Positions 1 to 16,250 of a DNA stretch of 17,176 bases are shown here, in pieces; position 1 is the stretch's first letter, and each line of letters opens with the position of its first letter. The notes under the pieces were generated by a model. The model saw only the letters and a program-made list of their open reading frames with translations, was not told the origin of the DNA and made no database searches. The position numbers and the translations under genes were made by a program. The stretch is taken from contig JANKJI020000004.1 of assembly GCA_024626585.2 (NCBI GenBank), positions 118,805,316 through 118,822,491 of the forward strand, given 5' to 3'. This stretch comes from Ginkgo biloba. Its lineage: Eukaryota > Plantae > Ginkgophyta.

Positions 1-870
1 TTATATCTTTCAATTTCGAGAATATTGTATTTTATATATTTTTGCATAAAAAATATATATTTTACATTCGGTGTCCATTCTTAATTTTTATTTGCTAACT
101 TATATTTCCAAGCATTTTCGACATGCGGTTCATGTTTTCAAGCTTTTTGTGCTTTCTATCTGCAAGTTTTTTCTTTTTTTTTTTTTTGACTTGCAAGAAA
201 TCTTTCTATACACATGTTCTTCATTTTTCTGCATGTATGTATTTTTTGGATTGTCAAGCTTTTTATTGTTATATTTGACTTCCAAGCATTTTAATTAGGA
301 ACGCGTTTCTTGCATATGTTTTTCTTCGTCCAATTTCCCCAGCATTTCCACGTGTTGACTTTGCTAGCGTTCTTATATAATTTGTTTCAAATTTCACTGT
401 TATGAATTTTCTTCTTTTTGCTGTTACTTGAGTTTATTTTGATTTTTTCTTAGCATCTTTAAATCTTCTATTAGCTTTTTGCAAGCATTCTTTTCCTAAT
501 TGCAAACTTTTCTAGGTAGACAATGCACAAATCGCAGCAATATTTTTTGGCATTTTGCAAGCATGTTTTGGCAGAAAATGCACAAAATATAGCAAGAATT
601 CAGTTTCATTTGTAGCTTGCATGCATGTTTGGAAAATTTTCATTTATGCAGGCATTGGTTTGCTTATTTTATAATCAGCTTGTTGACACACAATGCACAA
701 AATACAACAGTAACAGCAATGAAGCACAAAAAAGACTTCAATATACTAAGTGGAAAATCTCTTCTTTCCCAAGTACAATCTACTAGAATTCTGGACATCT
801 TTTATGGATCTAAGTTCAATTGTGGCATCTGTTTTGTGCAAACACAATGACTGGAAGCAATTAGCACCTG

Positions 871-993
871 CTGTATGTTACAGCAAACATGCCTTGTCCA
901 CATCTTAGCTGAGTCATAAATGCCAACTTCTGTATATTAGAGCAAACATGCCTTGCCCACATGTGAGCTTAATCATTAATGTACCAAGTTGTG
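871..993. repeat. Diverged tandem duplication, period 59 bp
   Basis: ctgtatgttacagcaaacatgccttgtccacat at 871 aligns with ctgtatattagagcaaacatgccttgcccacat at 930. Confidence 0.85.
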
Positions 994-3356
994 AAGGTGC
1001 AGAAATGGCAAGTTGAATGAAGCAATAATCTACGTGCTAAAATAGATTTCTTCCTTACATAGAAAGAGCTTATCGAAGTTGAACATTCCTTCACTCATGT
1101 ATCTGGTTGATGAATGTATTCTCTTTGTTTTTTTTGTGTATCTGACTCATAGGTTCTTTTCCTTCATTTGATTTATGATGTTTTCTGTCTAATATTTCCT
1201 ACTTTATTGCTGGATCCTGCTGGTTTCTCTTACAGATCGTTATGGATTCATCTGAGTGCATGCGCAATCGAGACTAGGAAATTACAGACTGTGTTGTTTC
1301 CTTGAGAGGGTGTTTAGCATTTACTAATCATCATGTATTGTCATATTGTGTTGTTGTTTCTTTAGTCATTACGGTTAATAAATCAGCCAATGACAGTATC
1401 TTTTTCAGTCCTAAACAGTTCTGTTCAACCACATTCCTTTGTTTTGAAGATATAGTTATCACATGCGCAGGAATACGTTTTTCAAGATGTGGTTATAAAT
1501 GTTCGAGAAGGAGATCACTCCTGTCTCTCTGGGAGGAACAAATCCTTCAAATAAAGTAATGATTAGCGAACAAATCCTGTCTCTCTTAGTACACCAATAA
1601 TACCCTCGTATGGTCATTAGCGACCTTTTAGCCCTGAAATCTAGAATCAACTGTGAGAGTGGCCTCTGCACTAAGATTATGGATGATCAATGTCACTTCT
1701 TTGTGTCCAGGCAGAAGTTGATCGGTCTCTGGTCCACATTCTCTTGAAATCCACCAGCAGATGGATGATGATTCAGCAAAGCAACTGTCCCTGCCATGAA
1801 GTATATTACTTTTGGTAACTTGTTATTGGCTGGACCAGTCAGGCACATTATATATGGGGGACAACTGTTATGAGTGGCTGATACATTCAATTGGCATTGC
1901 AAAGAGTTGAAGCTTTCTAATTAGACCTATTTAGTGTACAAAATTAGGATACTTCTCTCTTTCCTTCATATTTATTTTGGCTGCAGATGCCTTGTAAATC
2001 TCAGCTTTTTATTACTAGCAGTTAGGAATTCACCCTTTATTTTGCTGATGTTATTCTCTCAAGGAAGCAACAAACAAACACATGAGATGAGGTTGGATTT
2101 AATGAAGGAGAGTCCTGTTAAGTCAGTGTTGATGGCGGAGAAATACTCTTGCTAGGAGGAATAATGAGANNNNNNNNNNNNNNNNNNNNNNNNNNNNNNN
2201 NNNNNNNNNNNNNNNNNNNNNNNNNNNNNNNNNNNNNNNNNNNNNNNNNNNNNNNNNNNNNNNNNNNNNNNNNNNNNNNNNNNNNNNNNNNNNNNNNNNN
2301 NNNNNNNNNNNNNNNNNNNNNNNNNNNTGGCAAGAGCTATTTTTAGGTAATGGAGACAAAATAGGAGTAGCAACATTATCTGCAAAATTTGTACTAGCAT
2401 TAGCTGAGTTTTATGTACCTATTTCTTAATGATTTGTGTTCATCTGGAAAAGAAGGAAAATTAGCCTTTTTTATTTATAGAATATGAGGATGTTTCTAAA
2501 CTCCTACCAAGCAGGAAAAAACAAAACACTTTTAGAACTTTGAACATTCACTTTTATAACTTCCGGATTCAAACATGCTCCTATTGAAGACCCACCCAGC
2601 CACTTTCATGTATCAGGTGGCATATTTTCCTGAGGTTCTGCCTGGTTTGTTTCTAGTACAAGCCTTTCTGTGGCAAATTGGCCATCTTCTTCAGAATATT
2701 GAAGCAGTTGGCATTCTTTCTGGAAGCCTGTTGGGCTGATTTGTCATTTTTTTGTTCATGCACATCCTTATATTAACAAATCTTGAATGCCTACAAAATT
2801 CTGTTCCGAAAAATCAGACAGGATCTCTAAATGGTACTATTTCTATGAAAAGTACAAGTAGATGAATAAGTAAAGGATCCTAATCTGGCAGAGTTAGAAG
2901 GGTTTTATATTTTGTGTGGTATTCATCCATCTCATTTTTACATACTATTCCTTCTTTGACTCTAGAAAGGATAGACTCGACTTGTATTTTAAGGAGTCAT
3001 TGTGCATTTCCTTTGGAGTAGATCCTGTTTGAGTGTTGGAAGAGGAGTGGTAGAGAAATTGGAGGTGGGGCACAGGGCAAGGATTGGGTTATGAAGCACC
3101 CTTTCTTGCTGGTCGCACTCCTTGTCACTTTTTCTCCTTAGTTTGGTGTTCTCCTCCTTGGTCCAGAATGCTGTCTTAGGTTTGCCTGTCCAGAAGTGCT
3201 TATGCAAGTGGAATTTGAATCTGGATGTTTTGCCTTCAAATGTAAAACTGTGTTGAGGGTGGTCCTCGCGTCTATAATGAGGTCCTTGAGAACTTCTGTA
3301 TATGCTTGGCCTGGATCCGTGTCTCCTGACTTGTTCAAGCACATCTTCTCATCAAT

Positions 3357-3595
3357 CATGCATTTCCTAAGTTTCCAGGAAATAGGATCGGGGACGGGAT
3401 TGGGGATAGGGCCAGGTATAGGAAATGGCACTTTTCAAAATTCAAAGATATACAGGGAGTGGTGAATTTTAGGGTTTTAAAAAAATATATATATAAAAAA
3501 TATATGGATACAAAAAATATGGAACTTATGAAACTTGTTATGTCACCCAAATGATAAAATGCTTAAACTCTATGAACATATACTATATTAGTATA
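3357..3595. mobile_element. Possible terminal/subterminal fragment of a DNA transposon (hAT/MITE-like)
   Basis: There is an abrupt switch to TTTCC...GGAAA and repeated GGGAC/GGGAT motifs, followed by an AT-rich tract that ends in a gap. No partner TIR or target-site duplication is visible. Confidence 0.3.
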
Positions 3596-4684
3596 NNNNN
3601 NNNNNNNNNNNNNNNNNNNNNNNNNNNNNNNNNNNNNNNNNNNNNNNNNNNNNNNNNNNNNNNNNNNNNNNNNNNNNNNNNNNNNNNNNNNNNNNAAACA
3701 AGAATCTGTAATTACTGACATTGGGAGATTTTGACTCACCCACTAAAACACTGATCAATACTAGGGACCCATTACTAATCAACAATCATGTTGAGATGAA
3801 ACAAGTTGAAAAGCAAATGGCAGTACTAGTCAAGACAACAAAGCAACATGGAGTTCCAATTCCACGAAAACTCAACCTTGACACAAAGTACATATGCCAT
3901 GGCTGACAAGGAGCAATTTGCAGTTTCAGCCATAAAAGTCCCAAGGGGAAATGCTTGATAGAACAACATTTTTGAAAATTTTACGTTATAGCCTACATTT
4001 TTGACAATTTTGATGAATGTGACTTGAGCAAGGACATTGGAGGCTTGTGTGCGGTGAGATTCATGTTTAGTAACTGACTCTTTGGCAAGTCTAAGAATGG
4101 ATTATGGCATAAGTAACTCTACTTTAGACACAAGAAAACATGCAACTTGGGAAGACACGGCAAGAGACTACAAGTTAGAAGCCTGGTGATAGCAATAACA
4201 TGTTGATTACAATAATAACAAGCTGGTCATATGCAGGAGTTACAGGTTGTTAGTCATAGCTTTAGTTGTAGTTTCCATAATCTTGATATGAGCCAATCAC
4301 AACATGTAATTGTTGGAACCTGATGCCTTGCCATGAATGCATTATGATGATTGGGCATTGGTTTGAAGTCGATATGAGTACAAAGAGTTGTTAGGCCTGA
4401 ATGAAGAGTCATGTTGTGACAAAAGGATGTGTCTTTAGAAGATGAAGGGTTGCATACTATCCTTTTCAATTGTATAAATATGCCACCATTTGGGCATATC
4501 AATCATCTACGTATTTGTATCCCAACCAAGTAGGCATATACATTGTACTTGCTGGGAAGTAAAAGATGTAATGGAGAGACAATTACACATGCTATCCTAA
4601 TTGTTTGCTATGAGAAATGCTAATCAATTTCAATCTTGTTTATGTTACTTTCTTTTGCATATGAGCATAAATGAGAGCATGTGA

Positions 4685-4990
4685 GGACATCTACGTGCAT
4701 TTTCTCATTAGTAGCTCACAATATAGTGTTGGGAACTAGAAGAGACCTGTTTTAGCAGACAAAACCATGTTTCAAGGGTGCAAATTTGTAGGGGGAGAGA
4801 CATGCTAGGAACACCAATTGATGAATTAAACTCTGGTTAAATAAGTTATTAGGTTAACCTTAGTTTGTATGTGTAAGCGTGTCATTTTATGAGATTGTGT
4901 TGAGGTCTTGAGAAGGTTGGTTCCAACCTAATCCACACTTTTCGATTATGTTATTGAGGTCTTGTTTTGCAACATGAAATGGCATCTATG
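4685..4990 (+). mobile_element. Possible decayed 3' end of an LTR retrotransposon (chromodomain-like remnant, PPT, short TG...CA segment)
   Basis: YVHF and WELEE (4730-4744) occur in different frames. These are followed by a purine tract AGGGGGAGAGA at 4790-4800, TG at 4803 and ...CAACA ending at 4974. All motifs are short and no second LTR is present. Confidence 0.3.
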
Positions 4991-5889
4991 TTTTCTTTTG
5001 TAGGTATTACTGTGTATTGAATCTATCGTGGACCATTTATTCAACTTATTTGGAGAGGATCCTTTTGGAGAGCAAACTTTTGTGATCATTTAGTGCAGGA
5101 GCTCTTGATATTTCACACCTATTGTGGATTATTGTTATTGCTTGATAAATTACAGCTATACGATGGTCTCATCAACCTATTTGGTTTGATGATTTAGTAG
5201 TAGTAGAACCATCAAGTTTTTCTACAAGCTTCATTTAATGTTAGTAATGCCATGCCATTGTCAAATCCCAATTTAAACACAAGCACGTAAGGTAAGCAGT
5301 CTCATACCTTATGTCTTGTGCATCTCAAGGTCTACTTTTAAACACTTCAGGCAATGCTTTTTCCTGCTATTTGTTTGCTCCATGCCAATCTTGAATGCTG
5401 GGGTTGCTTCTATGGAAACCTTCCATGTAGTCACCCTCTCTTTAATGCCAACCTTTTCTATTGTTTTCTTGTCCTTATGTAACTATTTCTTTTCCTTTAT
5501 CGTGCCTTTACATGAGANNNNNNNNNNNNNNNNNNNNNNNNNNNNNNNNNNNNNNNNNNNNNNNNNNNNNNNNNNNNNNNNNNNNNNNNNNNNNNNNNNN
5601 NNNNNNNNNNNNNNNNNNNNNNNNNNNNNNNNNNNNNNNNNNNNNNNNNNNNNNNNNNNNNNNNNNNNNNNNNNNNNNNNNNNNNNNNNNNNNNNNNNNN
5701 NNNNNNNNNNNNNNNNNNNNNNNNNNNNNNNNNNNNNNNNNNNNNNNNNNNNNNNNNNNNNNNNNNNNNNNNNNNNNNNNNNNNNNNNNNNNNNNNNNNN
5801 NNNNNNNNNNNAATGAGATCATAACAATTTACCCAGTCCTATTTGAAGTATCTCCAAGGCCGTAATCTGTCCTTGCAGACTTTGACTAT

Positions 5890-6036
5890 AATCATTTGCC
5901 CAAAGAAACATTTTGTAGCAATTAATTTAAAGGTTCTTATTTTTCTATCTGATACATAAATGGAATCGTTTGCCGAAAGAAACATTCTGTAGCAATCAAT
6001 TTAAAGGTTTCTTCTTTTTTTTTTTTTTTTACATCA
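5890..6036. repeat. Tandem duplication, period 74 bp
   Basis: aatcatttgcccaaagaaacattttgtagcaattaatttaaaggtt at 5890 aligns with aatcgtttgccgaaagaaacattctgtagcaatcaatttaaaggtt at 5964. The second copy has an expanded poly-T. Confidence 0.85.
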
Positions 6037-6699
6037 NNNNNNNNNNTTTTTCTGTTCGATAAACATCATTGTGTATGACAGAGAACTGAGACACGGACCA
6101 TTATTCAAACCAGTGTTGCTTCTAGAAATACTAAGAGACTTTCTAGCAAAGGGCATGTTCATACTCATTAGTAGAATTCGCCATCTGCTTTTATAGTCAT
6201 GTCAATAAAATTTTTCATTCTTTTCAGAAAGGTACTGGGGCACTAAACTTTTTGTGCTCTTCTATGAGTAGCAAAGCCAGTACCATTGTAAACAGAATAG
6301 TTGTCTGATGAAGCTTAATGACCTGTTTCCATTCTTAACATAATTATGTGGGATTTCCAAAAGAAAAAACTTAAATTTTTTTTCATGAATTTCTTATATG
6401 CATCTAAGTTGGTCCTACTTTCAGGAAGTAGTTAGAAGCATTATCTCCCAACTTGCTTTCATAAGCCTTCGAACTGCATCTATTGGGAAACACATTAAAA
6501 ATCTTCAAAATTTCATTTCTTTTCTTTTTTTTTTTTATTTGAAATGCATGGGCTATTGGGACACACATAAAAAAACTTGAAAATTTAATTTCTTTTCTTT
6601 TTTTTTTTTTTTTTTTTTTCATGGGCTGTATTTCTTCTGTATGTTTGTATGTGTGCACATGCATGTGCTTGTGAGAACTAATTCTGTGAATGTTTACAG

Positions 6700-6882
6700 T
6701 TCTAAGGACAGGCACAACACAGCATAAGGCAGCAAGCGAGGTCTATGAACTTCCCATTACTGCCAACCGTATTCAACTTCCAGATGGAAGGTACATTGCA
6801 TACCGGGAACAAGGGGTTTCAGCAAGCATAGCTAGACACTCGGTTTTGGTTGTCCATTCATTTCTTTCTTCTCGTCTAGCAG
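6700..6882 (+). CDS. Internal coding exon of a plant alpha/beta-hydrolase fold protein (Abhydrolase_1; resembles the Arabidopsis At3g09690/At5g02970 type), start of the hydrolase domain
   Basis: Translates as xLRTGTTQHKAASEVYELPITANRIQLPDGRYIAYREQGVSASIARHSVLVVHSFLSSRLAG. The LPDGRYIAY-x-E-x-G and HSFLSSRLAG motifs are characteristic of this family (recalled, not searched). Acceptor tttacAG ends at 6699, with a branch-like actaat at ~6677. Donor is GCAG|GTGAGT at 6882/6883. The exon is 183 bp, phase 1-1. Confidence 0.9.
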
Positions 6883-7212
6883 GTGAGTCAAACTTTTCAT
6901 TGTCAAATATTATTTGCCTGAGTTATTAAGATTACAAATTTGGTATATTTTTATGGTAGGTTACCTTTGCCTTTTCAGAAATCACGTTGCTGTGCTTTTA
7001 CATAAAAACAGCTCAGTGACACATTCAACCCTTTGTAGTTGCTGCTGAAGATCGAAAAATACGTTGAAGAGATAGGGCATTCTTGTTTGAAAAACATCAT
7101 TGTTAGTAGACANNNNNNNNNNNNNNNNNNNNNNNNNNNNNNNNNNNNNNNNNNNNNNNNNNNNNNNNNNNNNNNNNNNNNNNNNNNNNNNNNNNNNNNN
7201 NNNNNNNNNNNN

Positions 7213-7384
7213 TTTTTCTTTTGACAATCTCTTCTTATTGGTTCTGGTTTTGCCTCTTTTCCTATCACTAAGTCTGAACACTCCTTGTGTGTGAGAATGA
7301 TCCCCATCTTGTACTTCCAAGCCGAGTAGTTTTTCCCATTTACCTATGGGCATCTAGCATCATCAAATTTTGAATACTCGACAT
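7213..7384 (-). mobile_element. Ty1/copia gag N-terminal fragment, degenerate and cut by a gap
   Basis: The minus strand reads MSSIQNLMMLDAHR / (frameshift) NGKNYSAWKYKMGIILTHKECSDLVIGKEAKPEP. This matches the copia gag start pattern LNGxNYxxWKxKMxxxL...V.G.E..P. It ends at the N gap 7113-7212. The CpG-containing stretch 7385-8100 may be its leader, but no LTR or PBS was recognised. Confidence 0.6.
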
Positions 7385-8629
7385 TATTACACATTTGTTG
7401 CAAAAAAAAAGTGTTTTGATAACCTTGCACCTCAATGCTGAACAAAAATCATTAATCTTAATTAATTTTGAAGTTTGTGCTTTATTTTCCCTATTTTCTA
7501 CTATCTGACGTGAATTATGAAGGTTTTTACACTTTCCGTCAAGAAACGTGAATGTCTATCAAAAGACATGAATTCTTAATTTGAAATATTCGTCATTGAA
7601 TAATGTGGATTCCAAAAAAAATTGCTTTGATTAAATTAAAAAATTTAACTTTAGGAAAAAATCACTCGCTTGGAACCACCACGCGACTTCACTCCTCGAT
7701 TGGGTTTTTCTTCTGATTGTGCTCGATTGGGATTTCTTCCTTCCGCAAACATTTTGACTATTGCACTATCCGTGCTCTTCTCGTTTTTTATTGCGTTTTC
7801 TAAGTCACAGACTTTGATGCTCCTTCATGTTTGCTTCAGACTTCATGGGGTTCTCACCAATCTTCCACTGCGTTGGGGGTTCTTCAGAGATTTTTCAATA
7901 GTTGTGGGTTTGACGTCGATTCTTCAGTTCTAGTCTGCGAACTATGGCAACTCCTGTTTGTGTGTTTTCTTCTCACACTTTTGTTTCACAGGGATTTAAA
8001 CCAACGCGTTCTATGGTGGTGCAGTTCTTCCACATGTAAATTCTTTACTACTTCTCTTGGCCACGTACCACGTACGATGAACACTTGCTTCCCACTGTAA
8101 TGTAACCTAGCTTCAATCATTCAACGGTTACGTTTTTTCTACAGGAGTCTTTGTTATTTTCTCAACGAATGACCAACTACTCTTTCTACCTATTGCTTGG
8201 TTTGTTTGCATGAAACGAGCATTTTTTACATGCAAACAAATGACTAATGCTTATTTGTTGACCTCCTCCACTTTTTTTTTTTAATATTTATTCAAATTTG
8301 CAACGATAAGGATTTAACCAGCTATTGTTGACTAATTTAGAAAGGGGCACTCCATCTAATTGATTTAACTATACTGCCTCATTATCAAATATTTGTTGAA
8401 TTATATAAGGCCCCAACCATCAAATTTTTAACTTTTCAGGTTTTATCTTAAATTTGTGGTCGTATAAAAGTACAAGATCCTCATTTGTAAACTTTGGTGT
8501 CTATAAGTGGCGATCATGCCATGTTGCTTNNNNNNNNNNNNNNNNNNNNNNNNNNNNNNNNNNNNNNNNNNNNNNNNNNNNNNNNNNNNNNNNNNNNNNN
8601 NNNNNNNNNNNNNNNNNNNNNNNNNNNNN

Positions 8630-9915
8630 CATCAACTCTCTACCTGAAGGGTTCTACTTCGAGCTTCTACTCTGTCTTCTATAATAGTGAAGTCTCCACA
8701 AATAACCCTAGAGGCAATGGAGAACTCTTCACCTATCCATTGCTAGAGTTGGGTTTTTCCTCAAGTGTATTGGGAGCATATACTTTGGCAAGGCCTGACA
8801 TAGTATTGTTTATGTTTATAGTGACTCACACCATCCCAATAGTGGAATCCCCTCCCCTAGACACAATTATTTTTCTAAGGAAGACACAATGAGAGTTGAT
8901 GCTCCTCACTTTTCCTCAGTGTGATTTGAGCTAGACACTAAAGCACCTAACCATATGACATGCAGGGTTGTCCCAAGCTTGAATCCAGTAATTTTGACTT
9001 CTCTCAAGCAAAAGACGTCTATCTGACTGCACCCACTTTGTATATTTTTGATAGTGCCTTTTTGAAAGAGATCTGTCAGGTCTTTTACATTCAAGGTAAG
9101 GCAACTAGTTGTTAAAAATAGAGTGTTTTTCTCATCCAACCCATCTCCATCATCATAATGAGTGATAGCATCACGATCAAAACCATTACTGGTCTCCATA
9201 ATTCTTTTGAATCGTTTGCCTCAACTTTCAAATTATCAGTCAAGGTCATTGGGTATTTACCACCTTGAGAAGGAGTTGAGAATAAGGTTATACTATACTG
9301 AAGCGGCAAAGGCAAGGATTTGGCCTTACCCTTTGGATTCTAGCACCAACAATACTAGGAGCAGATTCCTTGGTGGCATTGGCCGTGCTTGTACTAAAAA
9401 TGGCTTGTTTGGTCACTCTTGTTTCATGCTTGTTAATCCTGGTATTGACCACTTAGTTGGTTGCAGTAGGTTTGCTACTGTTTTGTCTACCTTTGGATCT
9501 ACTAACTTGTTGCCACCTTTTTTCCTCCACAGCTTGAGATATTGCATTTATAGTTGGTTGGGCATTTTTCTCAAAGTTCTCAGGTTTTCTAGCTCACTGT
9601 GCTTTAATAACTATATCCTTGGCCATGAGAAAGCAACCTCTGATCGCATTCTCAGAACTTCAACATTGAAAATGGGTATGGACACTTTCATGTACTTGAC
9701 TGGTTGCATAAATGCAATGTTGCCACCAGGGATCTCAAGTTTTGATCTGAGTTCTTTAGAAAGGTCTACTTCCACATACACCCTTTTGTTGGTTTTGGGG
9801 TTGAATAACCTCTGATGCTCATCCCAGACATGTGTACCAAGGGAAGCAAGAACTGACCAAGAAAGTCCGAATAAGGCATTAGGAGCTTGGGAAACTTAAC
9901 CCACATAGGACAATG
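8630..9915 (-). mobile_element. Degenerate L1-like LINE: C-terminal half of ORF1 and the APE endonuclease domain of ORF2
   Basis: ORF1 motifs on the minus strand are PMWVKFPKL (~9885-9909), KRVYVEVDLSKELRSKLEI...FMQPVKY (~9690-9790) and a decayed zinc knuckle (HFQC*SSENAIRGC). Endonuclease motifs follow in the expected order: CLTLNVKDL (cf. SWNVRGL), DVFCLREVKI (cf. DxxCLQETK), KVYAPN (~8770-8787) and ICGDFT (~8687-8704; cf. GDFN). It carries several frameshifts and stops and is truncated by gap 8530-8629. Confidence 0.85.
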
Positions 9916-11743
9916 AAAGGGCCACAATAAGGTACACTTATTTCAACAAGGTTGGAAGATAGTACATACCAAGGGAGATGTTGTGTAAATAAACAACAAG
10001 GCTTAAAAATCCCATTTATGGCCTCATATAGGCCCTAGACTAAGGAACCCTTAATTAAATCCAAAATAAGGCTCAAAGTCTTAATAACCACTTAATACGG
10101 AAATNNNNNNNNNNNNNNNNNNNNNNNNNNNNNNNNNNNNNNNNNNNNNNNNNNNNNNNNNNNNNNNNNNNNNNNNNNNNNNNNNNNNNNNNNNNNNNNN
10201 NNNNGTAGAACCCTTCGGATGGATATCAGGTTGAAACAATTCTCCCTAATCCATGTTGGGGGACGACCAAGAATGTAACCCATGAATATCTCAGATGCAG
10301 TATAAAAGATTGGTATTAAGAGTAAACGAGGAGATGAGGAGTCACACTTTCAGGACAAATTTCCTTCTTTTTTGGGTGCTCAGCTGTGTAACTTGGCTAC
10401 TTAGAGTATCAAACTGTCTAGAATGCATAATGTGCCCAGAATGAGACACTGCAGTGATTTTAACCACCTTTCAAGGTAGAATGATGGTTAAATTAGGTCA
10501 AACACTTCAGCAAGATTGGAAGGGCATGGTATTAACTCCAGCTGAGAAATAAGATCTTAACTATTGACCTAAGCAACCATATTTTCTTAACCCTGACAAA
10601 TCATATTCCAAACACTTCAGGATTTGATATTCCAAAATTTCGACTTTTACACAGAGTGCTTAGTAGGGACTCATCATAACTGTGTCTTGTGGATCACATC
10701 AGAACACACAATAAATTTACCCCGATGTTGTGAAAATGAGCAGCTAATGAGAGAAGTATGCATAGCATGAGTTAAGAGAGATGATATGGGTCATTTTGTC
10801 TGCAAAAACCATTTTTGAAGGTCACAAAGTCTTTGTGGAGAATCAAAAGAAAAAATCAATTTTCAATTGCTAAAATTGGATTAAAACTCCACCGTTTGGG
10901 GAGTTGGTTTAAAAGTCACAGATCTATTTTGCACGAAATTTACTAACATACCCTTCAAGAGATGTTTATCCTTAACTGGATTTACGAACAATAAGGGCAA
11001 GTTATGTTTTGAATTTCACAGTTCTGCCAGTTGACAAAAGATCAATTTTAATATGGTTTTCAAGAATTTATCACTGACAATATCATGGCTCACTTTCAGC
11101 ACACTACCATATCTATAGAATGCTTACCTTCTACTTCTCGCCGTGTCTTTTGGAAATAACTTTTTATAAGGGAATCATGATGAATATAGGGGTTATTGTA
11201 TACAATCCAAGAGCATTTATATATTTCTAACCATGGTTATTACAAATGAATTTCCCTATGGAGTAGCTAAAGTTGATGGAGCATGTCTCAAAATTTGATA
11301 AAATGAGTAGTAGGGGGTGGATAATAAGAGGTTCCATAGATAAGTAGAGGAAGGTGTTATTTAAATATGTAGAAGTGGTTAAATCCAAAGTTAAGTATAG
11401 ATGGAGGATTTGGGCTAATAGAAGGTTAAATGTAGTAGGATATAAATGATTGATAATATCATGGTTGAGATAATTCAAATATATTTAANNNNNNNNNNNN
11501 NNNNNNNNNNNNNNNNNNNNNNNNNNNNNNNNNNNNNNNNNNNNNNNNNNNNNNNNNNNNNNNNNNNNNNNNNNNNNNNNNNNNNNNNATTTCTAGAAAG
11601 GATAAAATTGTGACAATAATAAGAAGAACAGAATCAATGGCCCTTATACTGGTACAGGCTGATTGGGTCTGCTTGTCATTTTCTATATTCAAGTAGAAAT
11701 AATCAGAGACATTTCTGTTAAATGTTGGCTTCATTGTGTGCAG

Positions 11744-11830
11744 GTTCGCATGGCTGTTTTTAGTCAGCATCATGTTGATGGGCTTGACTTATCTTCGAAT
11801 CCTCTCCTGTATATGATGCGATGCTATCCT
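11744..11830 (+). CDS. ABCF3: Isolated exon of an ABCF3/GCN20-type soluble ABC ATPase (Q-loop region of the second nucleotide-binding domain)
   Basis: Translates as VRMAVFSQHHVDGLDLSSNPLLYMMRCYP (29 aa, no stops), nearly identical to the plant ABCF3 segment ...SAK-VRVAVFSQHHVDGLDLSSNPLLYMMRCYP-GVPEQKLR as I recall it. Similarity starts and ends exactly at tgtgcAG| and |GTGAGT. The exon is 87 bp, phase 0-0. No neighbouring ABCF3 exon was found in the window, so it may be a non-functional fragment. Confidence 0.85.
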
Positions 11831-13109
11831 GTGAGTTTTACAATGCTGTGTTCTAAACCAATATCTTTTTCTTGTCTTCATTGTGTTGATGAGAGATGTT
11901 TAATAAAAATGTAACCTAGACATAGGGATTGAATCATTGAACTCTAACATGTAGTTCCCCAAACTGGTAAATCAATCTAATAATTGTGAAAATAGACAAC
12001 ATGCATTGTTACACATATTATCTGTTGTAATTGTACTATCAAAACTTGTTTACAACTGACATGATTTTTTAATTATTTGATTTTGATTATACCCAATTTG
12101 AAAGCACATCTGGGTTGTAAATTAGTGCATATACTATATCTAAGGACTCCAAGAGTGCTAATAATGTCCACGTGTTTAGTGCGTTTTTACACATTGAAGG
12201 GTTTCGTTTTCCATGTTGGGTTCTGTTGCTCCTTAAAATGTTGTGCATCAAATAATTTTGGAATTTCATTTTTCTTCTCAGAACATTGATTTTTCAGCCA
12301 TCTGGAATTTCATTTTACTCTGTATTTGAATAATATGTTGCTGCCTTCTTTATCAAGTCACTAATATTCAGGTTCATTTTGATCTGCTGGCAGGTTCGTT
12401 TTGATCTACCAGCAATTCGCCAGAATTTTACCAAAGCAGGATTGGAAAGTGATTGTGTGGCCAATGGGCACTTGGGTGTTTGCATGATATCTACTTGTCT
12501 TTCATATTGATGTTTTTCGTGCTATTGCATTTTATTTACCCTTGCGTGTTCCCCACCCCTCTCAGTTGTTCTTTTCATTTCTCTATCGTGTGTTTTTTAT
12601 GTTTGTATTTATGCGTCATCCCCTTGATTCCCTGTGGCCTCTTGTTGTGACCTTCCATTCCCATTGTGTCATTTGGTCTTTCCATTGCATTTGTCTCACA
12701 TCTTCAGTTTGGTGTATGCAGTTTCCCTTGTCCACACTTACCTGGCCTCAAAGCAGTGTTTCACAATAGTGTCATGTTTTTGTTCATTGAATTTCTTGCC
12801 ATCTAATCTTAGGCAGTGTCCAATGCTTTTGTTGTCAGTTCCACTCTCATGAGCAGTGCATCTGGGAAGTTGTGTGGCATTTCCCGGGGGTTGTTTGAGG
12901 TTTGCTCAATTCTGTTTAGTAATGAGGGCAAAATGCCGTGGGGTCAGCCAAGAAGTAGAAAAAGAAAGTATCAGATATTTTGTTTTGTAATGTTTTGTCT
13001 TAGACAAGTTATTATTGTGGAAATTATTGCATGAAGACCTTGTTAGGTTAATGCCCTTTTCATTGGTGTAGCTTACTTTTGTATCTCTTTTGCATTGTTG
13101 TTATTGAAG

Positions 13110-13324
13110 GTGCTGCATTGCTTGCTCCGATGGGGAATCCATATGATCCAAATTTGACCAAGGAAGAAATTCATAAAATTTGGGAAAAGTGGACGTTGAG
13201 AAGGAAGCTGGGTTTCATTCTCGCTAAGCGGGCTTCCTCCCTTCTTCCATCTTTTTATAAAAGAAGCTTTCTAAAAGAAATGGATCATCCCAATAAAGCT
13301 CTATCATTTGGTCTTGGGAAGAAG
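13110..13324 (+). CDS. Downstream internal coding exon of the same alpha/beta-hydrolase family (post-nucleophile strand and cap region)
   Basis: Translates as GAALLAPMGNPYDPNLTKEEIHKIWEKWTLRRKLGFILAKRASSLLPSFYKRSFLKEMDHPNKALSFGLGKK, matching the family pattern GAAMxAPxxNPY...WExW...LARR...FYRRSFL. Acceptor gaAG at 13108-13109 follows a T-rich tract. Donor is AAG|GTGTGT at 13324/13325. The exon is 215 bp, phase 1-0. The rest of ORF 13079-13549 is T-rich intron read-through. Confidence 0.9.
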
Positions 13325-13585
13325 GTGTGTTTGTTCTACTCTATAGGCTTCCTTATGTTATTGTGTATTATTGTTATAAGCCCAAATAAAGAATTTACTT
13401 TGTGCATAATTTGTTTCTTTCTTTCTGAATTCTTTTTGCTCTTTTATCTGCTATGTATATGTTCGTATGTTGCTCAAGATATTGTTGAAGTAGCTGGAAT
13501 GAAACCACTAAACAAAGAAATTACAAAGATGACAACTTTAGCTGTCTAGTAATGAAATTTTGAAAAAGTGCTATATGCGTGGGGG

Positions 13586-13587
<2 letters not shown>

Positions 13588-13641
<54 letters not shown>
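13588..13641. repeat. Perfect (GA)27 microsatellite
   Basis: Uninterrupted GA dinucleotide run read directly from the sequence. Confidence 0.97.
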
Positions 13642-13650
<9 letters not shown>

Positions 13651-14290
13651 TGTGAGAGAGAGGGAGTAAGAGGGAGTATGAGGGAGAGAGAGTGAGAGGG
13701 AGGGAGTAAGAGGGTGAGAGAGGGTGAGAGAGAAGGAGTATGAGGGAGAGAGGTTAAGAGGTAGAGAGGGTGAGAGAGATGGAGTAAGAGGGAGAGAGAG
13801 TGAGAGAGGGAGTAAGAGGGAGAGAGGGTGAGAGAGAGGGAGTATGAGGGAGAGTATGAGGGAGAGAGGGTGAGAGAGAGTCTGTATGAGCGAGAGTATG
13901 AGGGAGAGAGGGTGAGAGAGAGTCTGTATGAGCGAGAGAGGATGAGAGAGAGGGAGTATGAGAGATTATGAGGGATTATGAGTTAAAGAGGATGAGAGAG
14001 AGGGAAAGAGAATGAGATAGAGCGAGTAAGAGGGAGTATGAGGGAAAGACGGTGAGAGAGAGGGAGTATGAGGGAGAGAGGATGAGAGAGAGGAAGTAAG
14101 AGGGAGAGAGCGTGAGAGAAAGGGAGTAATAGGGAGTATGAGGGAGAGAGAGAGGGAGTATGAAGGATAGAGGTTGAGTAAGAGGTAGTAAGAGGGAGTA
14201 TTAGGGAGTATGAGGGAGAGAGGATGAGAGAGAGGGAGCATGAGCAAGAGAGAATGAGAGAGATAGAGAGAGTATGATCAAGAGAGGGAG
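13642..14290. repeat. GA-rich minisatellite built from ~10-bp subunits, often in ~30-bp units (consensus AGGGAGTATG AGGGAGAGAG GGTGAGAGAG)
   Basis: For example, 14061-14090 and 14091-14120 are adjacent 30-bp variants. The + strand is almost entirely purine. Confidence 0.9.
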
Positions 14291-14412
14291 TAAAATGGAT
14301 TCCTTGCAAAATTTTACACAAGATTGACTATTCATTTGCAAAAAAAGGCCTTTATATGGCTTAGCTATGGCCATTTTATTAAGTGTAACTTTCCCAAACT
14401 TTGTGTGTGTGT

Positions 14413-14471
<59 letters not shown>

Positions 14472-15494
14472 GAGAGAGTGAGAGGGAGTAAGAGGGAGAG
14501 AGGGTGAGAGAAAGGGATTAAGAGGGAGTATGAGGGAGAGAGGGTGAAAGAGAGGGAGTATGAGGGAGAGAAGGTGAGAGAGAGGGAGTATGAGAGAGAG
14601 AGGATGAGAGAGAGGGAGTATAAGAGAGAGAGAGAGAGAGAGGGAATAAAATGAATTACTTGCAAAATTTTACCTAAGATTGACTATTCGTTTGCCCAAA
14701 AAGGCCTCCGTATGGCTAAGATATGGCAATTTTATTAAATGCCAACTCATTATTAAAGGTCGTGAAAATTTCCTAAACTTTGTGTGTATTATGTTAAAGA
14801 GAGGGAGTAAGAGAGAGTATGAGAGAGAGAGAGAGAGGGAATAAGAGGGAATATAAGGGAGAGAGAGTGAGAGAGAGGGAGTAAGAGGGAGAGAGGGTGA
14901 GAGAAAGGGAGTAAGAGGGAGTATGAGGGAGAGAGGGTGAAAGAGAGGGAGTATGAGGGAGAGAGGGTGAGAGAGAGGAAGTATGAGCGAGAGAGGATGA
15001 GAGAGGAGTATGAGAGAGAGAGAGTACAATGGATTCCTTACAAAATTTTACCCAAGATTTACTATTTGTTTGACAAAAAAGTCCTCCTTATGGCTGAGAT
15101 ATGGCCATTTTATTAATTGCCAACTCACAATTAAAGTTCATGCAACTTTCTTAAACTTTGTTTGTGTACTGTGTTAAAGAGAGGGAGTAAGAGGGAGTAT
15201 GACAAAGAGAGAGAGGGAGTATGAGGGAGAGAGAGTGAGAGAGAGAGAGAGTAAGACGGAGTATGAGGGAAAGAGAGTGATAAAGAGGGAGTAAGAAGGA
15301 GAGAGGGTGAGAGAAAGAGAGTAAGAGGGAGTATGAGGGAGAGAGGTTGAGAGAGAGGGAGTATGAGGGAGAGAGGGTGAGAGAGATGGAGTATGAATGA
15401 GAGAGGATGAGAGAGAGGGAGTATGAGAGAGAGAGAAAGAGGGAGTAAAATGGATTTCTTGTGAAATTTTACCCAAGATTGACTATTCGTTTGC
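14291..15494. repeat. Higher-order tandem repeat: conserved AT-rich core (~110-150 bp) alternating with variable-length GA-rich minisatellite; at least 4 copies
   Basis: Cores with consensus TAAAATGGATTCCTTGCAAAATTTTACCCAAGATTGACTATTCGTTTGC... start at 14291, 14647, 15025 and 15446 (spacings 356, 378 and 421 bp). The fourth is cut by gap 15495-15594. Confidence 0.92.
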
Positions 15495-15594: not shown

Positions 15595-16250
15595 GCCAAG
15601 TTTATCCCTTCTAGAATGTCTCATAAAGGGAAGGATATATTTAAAATCCTAACAGATAAAATATTTACTATGAGGTACCAAGGAGTATTGTGAGCAATAA
15701 AGATTTTAAGTTCAAGTGCCAATTGTGGAAGGATTCTTCCAAAGCTTGAGAAGATAGTTAAATTTCAGTACCAGTGATAACCCTTAGACACATGGACAGA
15801 CAAAATGAGTTAATCAGATCATGGAGGACATGCTGAAGTTGTACGTAGTGACCAAGTAGACAAGTTGGGAAGATAAGCTTCCCTTTGTGGAGTTTGCATA
15901 CAATAACAATAAGCGTTCAACTACAAGTATGACACCTTCCAAAGCAATATATGGTTATGAGACTCTTATCCCTTTAGACATGTACTTGAAAAAATTTAAA
16001 GGGAAAACTCAAGTATCAATGGAATGCTTGAGCAAATGCAAAAGAAGCTAAAGTAATGTCGAAGAAACATAGAAAGGGAACAAGCACATGAGAAAGTGTA
16101 TCCAAAAAAGCATAGATTGCCAAGGTCATTTGAGGTGGGAGCCATGGTGTATATGAGGGACAAGCTCAATACTTCCTTTCCTATAGGAAGATGTGCAAAC
16201 TCTCCTTGAGATACTACAAAACGTTCCAAGTGTCGAAAAAGATAAATGAA
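15595..16250 (+). mobile_element. Degenerate Ty3/gypsy integrase fragment
   Basis: Interrupted frames give AKFIP, VPRSIVSNKDFKF (cf. PxxIVSDRDxxF), NFSTSDNP*THGQTK*VNQIMEDMLKLYV (cf. STAYHPQTDGQTERVNQxLEDMLR), WEDKLPFVEFAYNN, MTPSKAIYG and RSFEVGAMVY. There are many stops and the catalytic residues are mutated. Confidence 0.9.

What the first reader, a model, noticed from the sequence alone, without database searches (positions are those of the whole stretch)
11744..11830. Pristine orphan ABCF3/GCN20 exon between two exons of an unrelated alpha/beta-hydrolase gene, on the same strand
Seen: an 87-bp stop-free segment bounded by cAG and GTGAGT, encoding VRMAVFSQHHVDGLDLSSNPLLYMMRCYP. It lies 1.28 kb upstream of hydrolase exon 13110 with no N gap between them (contig 11589-15494). 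Known: this peptide is the NBD2 Q-loop region of plant ABCF3 (Arabidopsis At1g64550, recalled). The flanking ABCF3 peptides (...GTVFRSAK and GVPEQKLR...) were not found in the window. Inference: retained splice sites imply a DNA-level copy rather than a retrocopy. Options are (a) gene-fragment capture by a Helitron or Pack-type element, or double-strand-break filler DNA, (b) two same-strand genes interleaved through giant introns, which would be highly unusual, or (c) a chimeric contig. It looks far less decayed than every TE fragment around it, so it is either recent or under selection.
Basis: partly seen in the sequence, partly recalled or inferred. Interest (0 to 1): 0.78.

Follow-up and report, generated by a model that had tools for sequence, protein, structure and literature searches.

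The report
Real ABCF3 exon, probably misassembled
An 87-base exon of the ABCF3 translation-factor gene lies next to an exon of an unrelated hydrolase gene in this gymnosperm-like scaffold and matches the exon in the ABCF3 messenger RNA letter for letter; it is likely there because the assembly joined pieces of two separate genes, which would make it an ordinary error.

Summary
In detail: 11744-11830 is an intact ABCF3 exon with the usual intron positions, 1.28 kb upstream of a hydrolase exon. It is not a decayed orphan. Spliced contigs from three studies carry it with 0 differences inside ABCF3 mRNA. Two independent DNA runs give it one unbroken context, from 514 bases upstream to 469 downstream. 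The hydrolase side (12394-13324) is also expressed. What is not shown is that the two sides touch. No independent contig listed covers 12331-12389, and one low-depth RNA contig leaves the window at 12330. The only bridging run, X1, behaves like a copy of the assembly. In Taxus and Cryptomeria the two genes lie on different chromosome-scale records. Best reading: an assembly misjoin near 12330 (0.55). Rivals: a very young exact copy of 1.1 kb or more of ABCF3 in the hydrolase intron (0.37), and true same-strand interleaving (0.06). Unlisted RNA pieces in 12232-12684 could overturn this. The scan's earlier notes held nothing on this DNA.

The parts
11744..11830 (+). ABCF3/GCN20 coding exon, 87 nt, phase 0/0, in NBD2
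   Evidence: 0 differences from the exon in spliced ABCF3 contigs of X14, X17 and X15
11589..12330 (+). Block carrying the exon with its intron flanks; inferred to be the ABCF3 locus itself (or an exact copy of it). In real DNA it goes on upstream of 11589 with letters not in the window
   Evidence: X11 contig 11589-12299 and X5 contig 11589-12035, 0 differences, with 103 and 359 further letters upstream; X15 contig 12001-12330; low-depth pieces in X14 and X17
12300..12393 (.). Suspected join; best single position 12330|12331 (inferred)
   Evidence: 12331-12389 is covered by no listed independent contig; X15 record 5 has 23 unlike letters beyond 12330 (letters not printed)
12394..13109 (+). 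3' part of the hydrolase intron; kept in a minor isoform that uses an alternative acceptor at 12393|12394
   Evidence: 772-nt contigs covering 12390-13137 with 24 other letters in front, in X14, X17 and X15; that these letters are the preceding hydrolase exon is inferred from the k-1 overlap
13110..13324 (+). alpha/beta-hydrolase coding exon, 215 nt, expressed
   Evidence: 0 differences from spliced contigs in X14, X17, X15
6700..6882 (+). Earlier exon of the same hydrolase family gene, expressed; the exon that follows it in the mRNA is absent from the window
   Evidence: tblastn and motif search; RNA pieces 6694-6884 with a loose end into the missing exon
11489..11588 (.). 100-N gap whose two sides are not adjacent in real DNA
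   Evidence: X3 goes on for 685 other letters after 11488; X5 and X11 have other letters before 11589

Best explanation
The 87-base segment is identical to the exon in the spliced ABCF3 mRNA and is likely the working exon of the ABCF3 gene, and its position beside the hydrolase exon is likely an assembly misjoin near position 12330. Shown: the exon is ABCF3, it has one visible genomic context over about 1.07 kb, and 12394-13324 belongs to the expressed hydrolase gene. Inferred: 11589-12330 is the ABCF3 locus; the assembler or a gap filler attached it to the hydrolase intron in place of that intron's true upstream sequence; the scaffold was placed by its hydrolase half. Each gene would then splice normally at its own locus, and there is no new mechanism.
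For: (1) Exon identical to mRNA in 3 of the 3 contig runs with spliced sequence, and no difference in any listed piece within 11589-12330; a misjoin gives zero divergence for free. (2) One exon-bearing contig each in X11 and X5, none in X3, and no diverged second version at 82% likeness. The chance of missing a diverged copy in all three is about 0.06 from the shares read, ignoring filters and dropouts. (3) No listed independent contig crosses 12331-12389. (4) X15 record 5 follows the window to 12330 and then has 23 unlike letters. (5) The 11 large runs X2-X12 (7 samples, 4 studies) hold 0.95-0.98 of the words, none more. One absent junction costs about 3 words, giving 0.985, and the only stretches not verified by listed independent contigs are 12331-12389 and 13326-13560. 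(6) The only bridging run, X1, closes four N gaps with no letter between and a fifth with 3 bases lost, has 0 other letters in its listed long pieces, and is contradicted at 11489-11588 by X3, X5 and X11; so it is not independent. (7) The scaffold is poor here: 9 gaps, and one hydrolase exon missing. (8) The genes lie on different large records in Cryptomeria (1,007.6 vs 746.4 Mb) and Taxus (1,051.4 vs 995.0 Mb).
Against: No read or contig was seen that shows the hydrolase intron's alternative upstream sequence, so the misjoin is inferred from absences. The DNA runs were read only in part (81%, 46%, 42%) and the tool warns that a hole proves nothing. X15 record 5 is one contig at depth 3.2; its 23 letters were not printed and may be poly(A) or an artefact, and a natural copy predicts the same divergence. 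The X5 exon contig has depth 19.6 against 14.5 pooled over four other contigs. Under Poisson noise this fits 1.5 copies (z about -1) better than 1 (z +2.6 to +3.4) or 2 (z -2.9 to -3.8), though three of the four comparison contigs are other loci and the tool says depth is no copy number. X14 and X17 hold unlisted pieces in 12232-12684 that could be a hydrolase cassette exon crossing 12330; there is a strong acceptor at 12280-81. The 0.98 ceiling could also come from ordinary SNPs (about 1.2 expected per query, P(0) 0.30 per sample).
Confidence: 0.55

Rival explanations
1. A very young, exact DNA-level copy of 1.1 kb or more of the ABCF3 gene (exon plus intron flanks) is really inserted in the hydrolase intron, with its right breakpoint at about 12330; it may be present in only some individuals or on one haplotype. 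It would have come by transposon capture or break-repair copying and is normally spliced out with the intron. The mirror case, a hydrolase segment copied into the ABCF3 intron, is counted here too.
For: The assembly contig is continuous. X5 depth fits 1.5 copies best. X15 record 5 would be the parent intron leaving at the breakpoint. The unlisted RNA pieces could be a cassette across the join. Exon capture is common in gymnosperms: on average about 400,000 fragments per genome (PMC13477047, abstract and section 12).
Against: It needs 0 differences over 742 compared bases and an unbroken contig over 359 more; with assumed rates of 0.7-2e-9 per site per year (recalled, not sourced) that means younger than about 0.7-2 My, whereas the same paper calls gymnosperm capture more ancient than in angiosperms. 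Two fixed loci are disfavoured by depth (z about -3). No Helitron end at the boundary: the one CTRR|T at 12361 has no hairpin and the motif occurs 3.3 times per kb. No independent bridge was seen.
Confidence: 0.37
2. ABCF3 and the hydrolase are truly interleaved on the same strand: the single working ABCF3 exon lies in a hydrolase intron, the hydrolase exon lies in the next ABCF3 intron, and each transcript skips the other gene's exon.
For: Both exons match expressed mRNA exactly and no second copy of the ABCF3 exon was seen, which this reading predicts as well as a misjoin does. Joining the two exons would shift the frame and stop 15 codons after the junction, so mis-spliced products would likely be degraded.
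Against: Simple nesting is excluded, because no other exon of either gene lies between 11831 and 13109; only true interleaving remains. The genes are on different records in Taxus and Cryptomeria, so it would need several lineage-specific rearrangements. X15 record 5 leaves the window at 12330. In Drosophila, same-strand nested genes with introns are depleted (PMC3814207, passages).
Confidence: 0.06

Closest known systems
Plant ABCF3 / GCN20 (ABC-F translation factor)
   Same: 29 of 29 residues in 31 of 194 held proteins, and 26-28 of 29 in the gymnosperm-type proteins; same two intron positions; the next exon in the mRNA reads GVVEQKLRAH, as in Cryptomeria and Taxus.
   Different: Only this one exon is in the window.
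Chimeric contig or gap-fill error in a short-read draft assembly
   Same: Two expressed, apparently single-context pieces of different genes joined at a point that no listed independent contig crosses, next to a gap with wrong neighbours and a missing exon.
   Different: The alternative continuation of the hydrolase side was not seen and no shared repeat at the join was found. How such errors arise is from my own knowledge; one search gave a listing only.
TE-captured gene fragments in gymnosperms (PMC13477047); Helitron and Pack-MULE capture
   Same: A single exon with intron flanks, away from the rest of its gene.
   Different: No element end at the right boundary, no divergence from the donor, and an internal late exon, whereas the paper reports a preference for first and second exons.
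Same-strand nested genes (Drosophila, PMC3814207)
   Same: An exon of one gene inside an intron of another on the same strand.
   Different: Nesting means the whole gene lies in one intron, which fails here. 72.53% of same-strand nested genes in that paper are single-exon.

Membership tests
ABCF3/GCN20 exon | Sequence match to ABCF3 NBD2 | tested here: met
ABCF3/GCN20 exon | Conserved phase-0 introns on both sides | tested here: met
   cAG/GTGAGT; 20 of 27 short database proteins read Q before and V after
ABCF3/GCN20 exon | Sequence found spliced to the neighbouring ABCF3 exons in RNA | tested here: met
   X14 record 9, X17 record 17, X15 record 4; 0 differences. Contigs cannot tell this copy from an identical one elsewhere.
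Processed retrocopy | Introns lost, neighbouring exons fused | tested here: not met
Helitron-captured fragment | CTRR 3' end with hairpin, TC 5' end, A|T target | tested here: not met
   Right boundary 12230-12400 only: one CTRR|T at 12361, fold energy -0.1 kcal/mol. Left boundary not in the window.
Pack-MULE / TIR element capture | Terminal inverted repeats and target-site duplication around the fragment | tested here: inconclusive
   No inverted pair of note in 11589-13590; the left end lies 359 or more bases outside the window
Duplicated gene fragment (any route) | A second genomic copy exists | tested here: inconclusive
   No diverged copy in X11, X5, X3; an exact copy over 1.07 kb would be invisible; depth fits 1.5 copies best; no whole genome held
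Nested gene | Whole gene inside one intron of the other | tested here: not met
   No further exon of either gene in 11831-13109
Interleaved same-strand genes | Physical continuity between the two exons in independent data | tested here: inconclusive
   No listed independent contig over 12331-12389; runs read in part
Interleaved same-strand genes | Linkage conserved in relatives | tested here: not met
   Different records and distant locus tags in Cryptomeria (SUGI_0290430 vs SUGI_0849910) and Taxus (KI387_002538 vs KI387_005432/005434)
Assembly misjoin | No raw molecule spans the join, and each side has another continuation | tested here: inconclusive
   Left side: one RNA contig continues otherwise at 12330. 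Right side: not seen. No raw DNA reads were offered.

The most novel reading that the evidence does not exclude
Two expressed, multi-exon genes, the housekeeping gene ABCF3 and an alpha/beta-hydrolase, are interleaved on the same strand in a gymnosperm. Each transcript would skip a splice-competent exon of the other gene, although the genes are unlinked in yew and cedar.
Probability: 0.06. Interest if true: 0.85.

Novelty: not a real feature. Interest (0 to 1): 0.2.

Why it matters
If it is a misjoin, it matters only as a caution. Draft gymnosperm scaffolds can place real exons of one gene inside another, and a public run that looks like perfect support (X1) can be a copy of the assembly. Counts of 'captured fragments' with zero divergence may include such errors. 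If it is a young exact copy, it is a new member of a common kind, of some use for asking how fast a foreign splice-competent exon is ignored. If the genes are truly interleaved, it would be a natural test of how the plant spliceosome assigns exons to transcripts across long introns. My searches (listings only) showed no title or abstract start reporting such a case in plants.

Tried and rejected
No whole genome is held, so the whole-assembly tblastn could not be run. Pfam on the 29-residue peptide and on three short window pieces: 0 families in 4 of 4, too short. The PDB sequence search with the peptide gave 2 chance leucine-rich-repeat hits. No RNA holder is on record, where kinds are guesses; I rely on spliced joins instead. 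X23 raw RNA (about 2% read): 25 reads laid, none on any exon, not informative. X1 was rejected as independent support. Metagenome scans: an exact 32-nt pattern gave 0 matches; the hydrolase exon gave 324 pattern matches, none confirmed. Exact look-up of 10 window ORFs (1 across the join, 9 controls): none in the collection, so uninformative. The composition change-point in 11831-13109 is best at 12164, not 12330, and 4 of 9 control stretches score higher, so it was rejected as evidence. A model with a shared 61-bp repeat at 12270-12330 (X11 ends at 12299) was considered and set aside: it predicts four more X11 contigs, none was laid, and X11's depth of 4.6 makes a dropout likely. Rfam: 0 matches. 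Earlier findings: nothing by place or sequence; 7 loosely related notes by words, none used. Paper searches were seen as listings only. 8 of the 24 listed runs were laid; 16 were not.

Full report
Observation. The window is a scaffold of 10 contigs and 9 N gaps; 11589-15494 has no gap. No whole genome is held. A 43-residue query around it found 440 proteins at E<=0.01; 120 were listed, the named ones mostly ABCF3. 31 of 194 held ABCF3 proteins over 400 aa match all 29 residues. 20 of 27 short database proteins with the motif have Q before it and V after it, which shows the same two introns in other plants. The peptide lies in NBD2 between Walker A and the signature motif. tblastn with four ABCF3 and four hydrolase proteins finds in the window only this ABCF3 exon and two hydrolase exons, 6700-6882 and 13110-13324; the hydrolase exon between them is missing. 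The hydrolase exon's 6 hits are gymnosperm where named (Taxus, Cryptomeria, Welwitschia; 68-80% identity).

RNA. 20 of 24 listed runs hold half or more of the words of 11589-13560; I laid 8 of the 24. X14, X17 and X15 come from three studies. Their kinds are guessed, but they contain spliced contigs. Each carries 11742-11831 with 0 differences inside a long contig (2246, 2970, 1552 nt) whose loose ends are the preceding and following ABCF3 exons. The same runs carry 13108-13325 with 0 differences, spliced onward to the next hydrolase exon. X14 and X17 also carry 6694-6884 spliced to the exon missing from the window. All three hold a 772-nt contig over 12390-13137 with 24 other letters in front; by the k-1 overlap these are inferred to be the end of the missing exon, spliced to an alternative acceptor at 12394. 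So 12394-13324 belongs to the expressed hydrolase gene. Low-depth pieces (3.2-4.9) lie at 11867-12169, 11915-12159 and 12001-12330; the last has 23 unlike letters beyond 12330, which were not printed. No joint between the ABCF3 exon and a hydrolase exon was listed, but 9 joints were not shown.

DNA. X1 holds every word and has one 3362-nt contig across 10206-13580. I do not count it as support. It closes the gaps at 2170, 5518, 6037 and 7113 with no letter between and the gap at 11489 with 3 bases lost, and its listed long pieces have 0 other letters. Three other runs contradict it at 11489-11588: X3 goes on for 685 other letters after 11488, and X5 and X11 have the same other letters before 11589. 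X1 is therefore inferred to derive from the assembly. In the independent runs the exon lies in one contig each in X11 (11589-12299 plus 103 letters upstream) and X5 (11589-12035 plus 359), with 0 differences; X3 showed none. No diverged version was laid at 82% likeness. Any second copy must therefore be exact over about 1.07 kb, or have been missed (about 0.06 from the shares read). Within 11589-13560 the listed independent pieces leave only 12331-12389 and 13326-13560 uncovered. The 11 large runs X2-X12 top out at 0.98 of the words, which is what one absent junction gives (0.985); SNPs could do the same.

Results against my reading. X5's exon contig has depth 19.6 against 14.5 pooled, which under Poisson noise fits 1.5 copies better than 1 or 2; the comparison contigs are few and mostly other loci. 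Bin arithmetic shows unlisted pieces in X14 and X17 within 12232-12684 (1776 and 1025 depth x bases). There is also an excess in 12685-13137 (2573 and 2385), which a 30-base junction piece like X15 record 8 would explain, and none in the other three bins. The 12232-12684 pieces may be ABCF3 intron ending at 12330. They may instead be a hydrolase cassette from the acceptor at 12282 or 12298 to a donor at 12372 or 12394, which would cross 12330 and prove a natural join. X15 shows no such piece. The runs were read in part, so the missing bridge is weak evidence. Composition gave no support for a join at 12330.

Relatives. In Cryptomeria the hydrolase (SUGI_0290430) is on a 1,007.6-Mb record and ABCF3 (SUGI_0849910) on a 746.4-Mb record. 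In Taxus they are KI387_002538 on 1,051.4 Mb and KI387_005432/005434 on 995.0 Mb. The genes are therefore not neighbours in these two conifers. Nesting fails because no other exon of either gene lies between the two exons.

How it most likely works. Shown: two real pieces, an ABCF3 exon with its flanks and an expressed hydrolase intron-exon. Inferred: they are joined near 12330 only in the assembly (0.55). This explains the zero divergence, the single visible context, the RNA contig that leaves at 12330 and the 0.98 ceiling, and it fits a scaffold with wrong gap neighbours and a missing exon. A very young exact copy (0.37) explains the same data if it is large and recent or private, and it fits the X5 depth better; no Helitron end was found at the boundary. 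True interleaving (0.06) needs continuity that only X1 shows.

Known comparisons. PMC13477047 (passages and section 12 read, supplements not read) reports about 400,000 TE-captured gene fragments per gymnosperm genome, more ancient capture than in angiosperms, and a preference for first and second exons. A natural copy here would thus be a new member of a common kind. PMC3814207 (passages) reports that same-strand nested genes in Drosophila are scarce and mostly single-exon. Searches for interleaved same-strand genes gave nothing relevant in the listings. How gap fillers make chimeras, and the substitution rates used, are from my own knowledge.

Verdict. Observation confirmed; interpretation partly supported. 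The exon is real and ordinary; its neighbourhood is probably not real. Interest 0.2. One more lay of the RNA runs on 12200-12450, or one BLASTN against a long-read assembly, would settle it.

Noticed in passing
window 12394-13109: The hydrolase uses an alternative acceptor 716 nt upstream of the normal one in three runs (contig depths 44.5, 8.18 and 7.11 against 226.8, 147.3 and 35 downstream). By inspection the frame stops at the fourth codon, so it is likely a decay target. The site lies in a 22-nt tandem duplication with two AG|GTTC motifs.
   Followed up: partly
window 12232-12684: Unlisted RNA contig pieces in X14 and X17; they could decide between a misjoin and a natural join.
   Followed up: partly
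run X1 on window 1-13580: The best-holding public run behaves like the assembly with its N runs removed: flat depth near 77, gaps closed with no letters, contradicted by three other runs.
   Followed up: yes
window 6883-13109: A hydrolase exon of about 79 codons present in the mRNA is missing from the scaffold. Cryptomeria model P0124 (isoform X3) lacks the same exon.
   Followed up: partly
P0254, P0255 (Taxus): Taxus ABCF3 is annotated as two partial genes, KI387_005432 and KI387_005434, with one locus number between them.
   Followed up: no
window 13588-15494: GA-rich degenerate tandem array with periods of 10-70 nt, interrupted by four related AT-richer spacers seen by eye.
   Followed up: no
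window 9614-9895 (-) and 15860-16250 (+): Decayed frames that resemble a LINE ORF1 and a Ty3/gypsy integrase end (resemblance recalled); Pfam gave no hit for 7 of 7 such window pieces.
   Followed up: partly
window 3550-3760 and about 9970-10050: Short very high-copy repeats next to gaps (X1 summed depth 47,538 and 6,523 in those bins).
   Followed up: no
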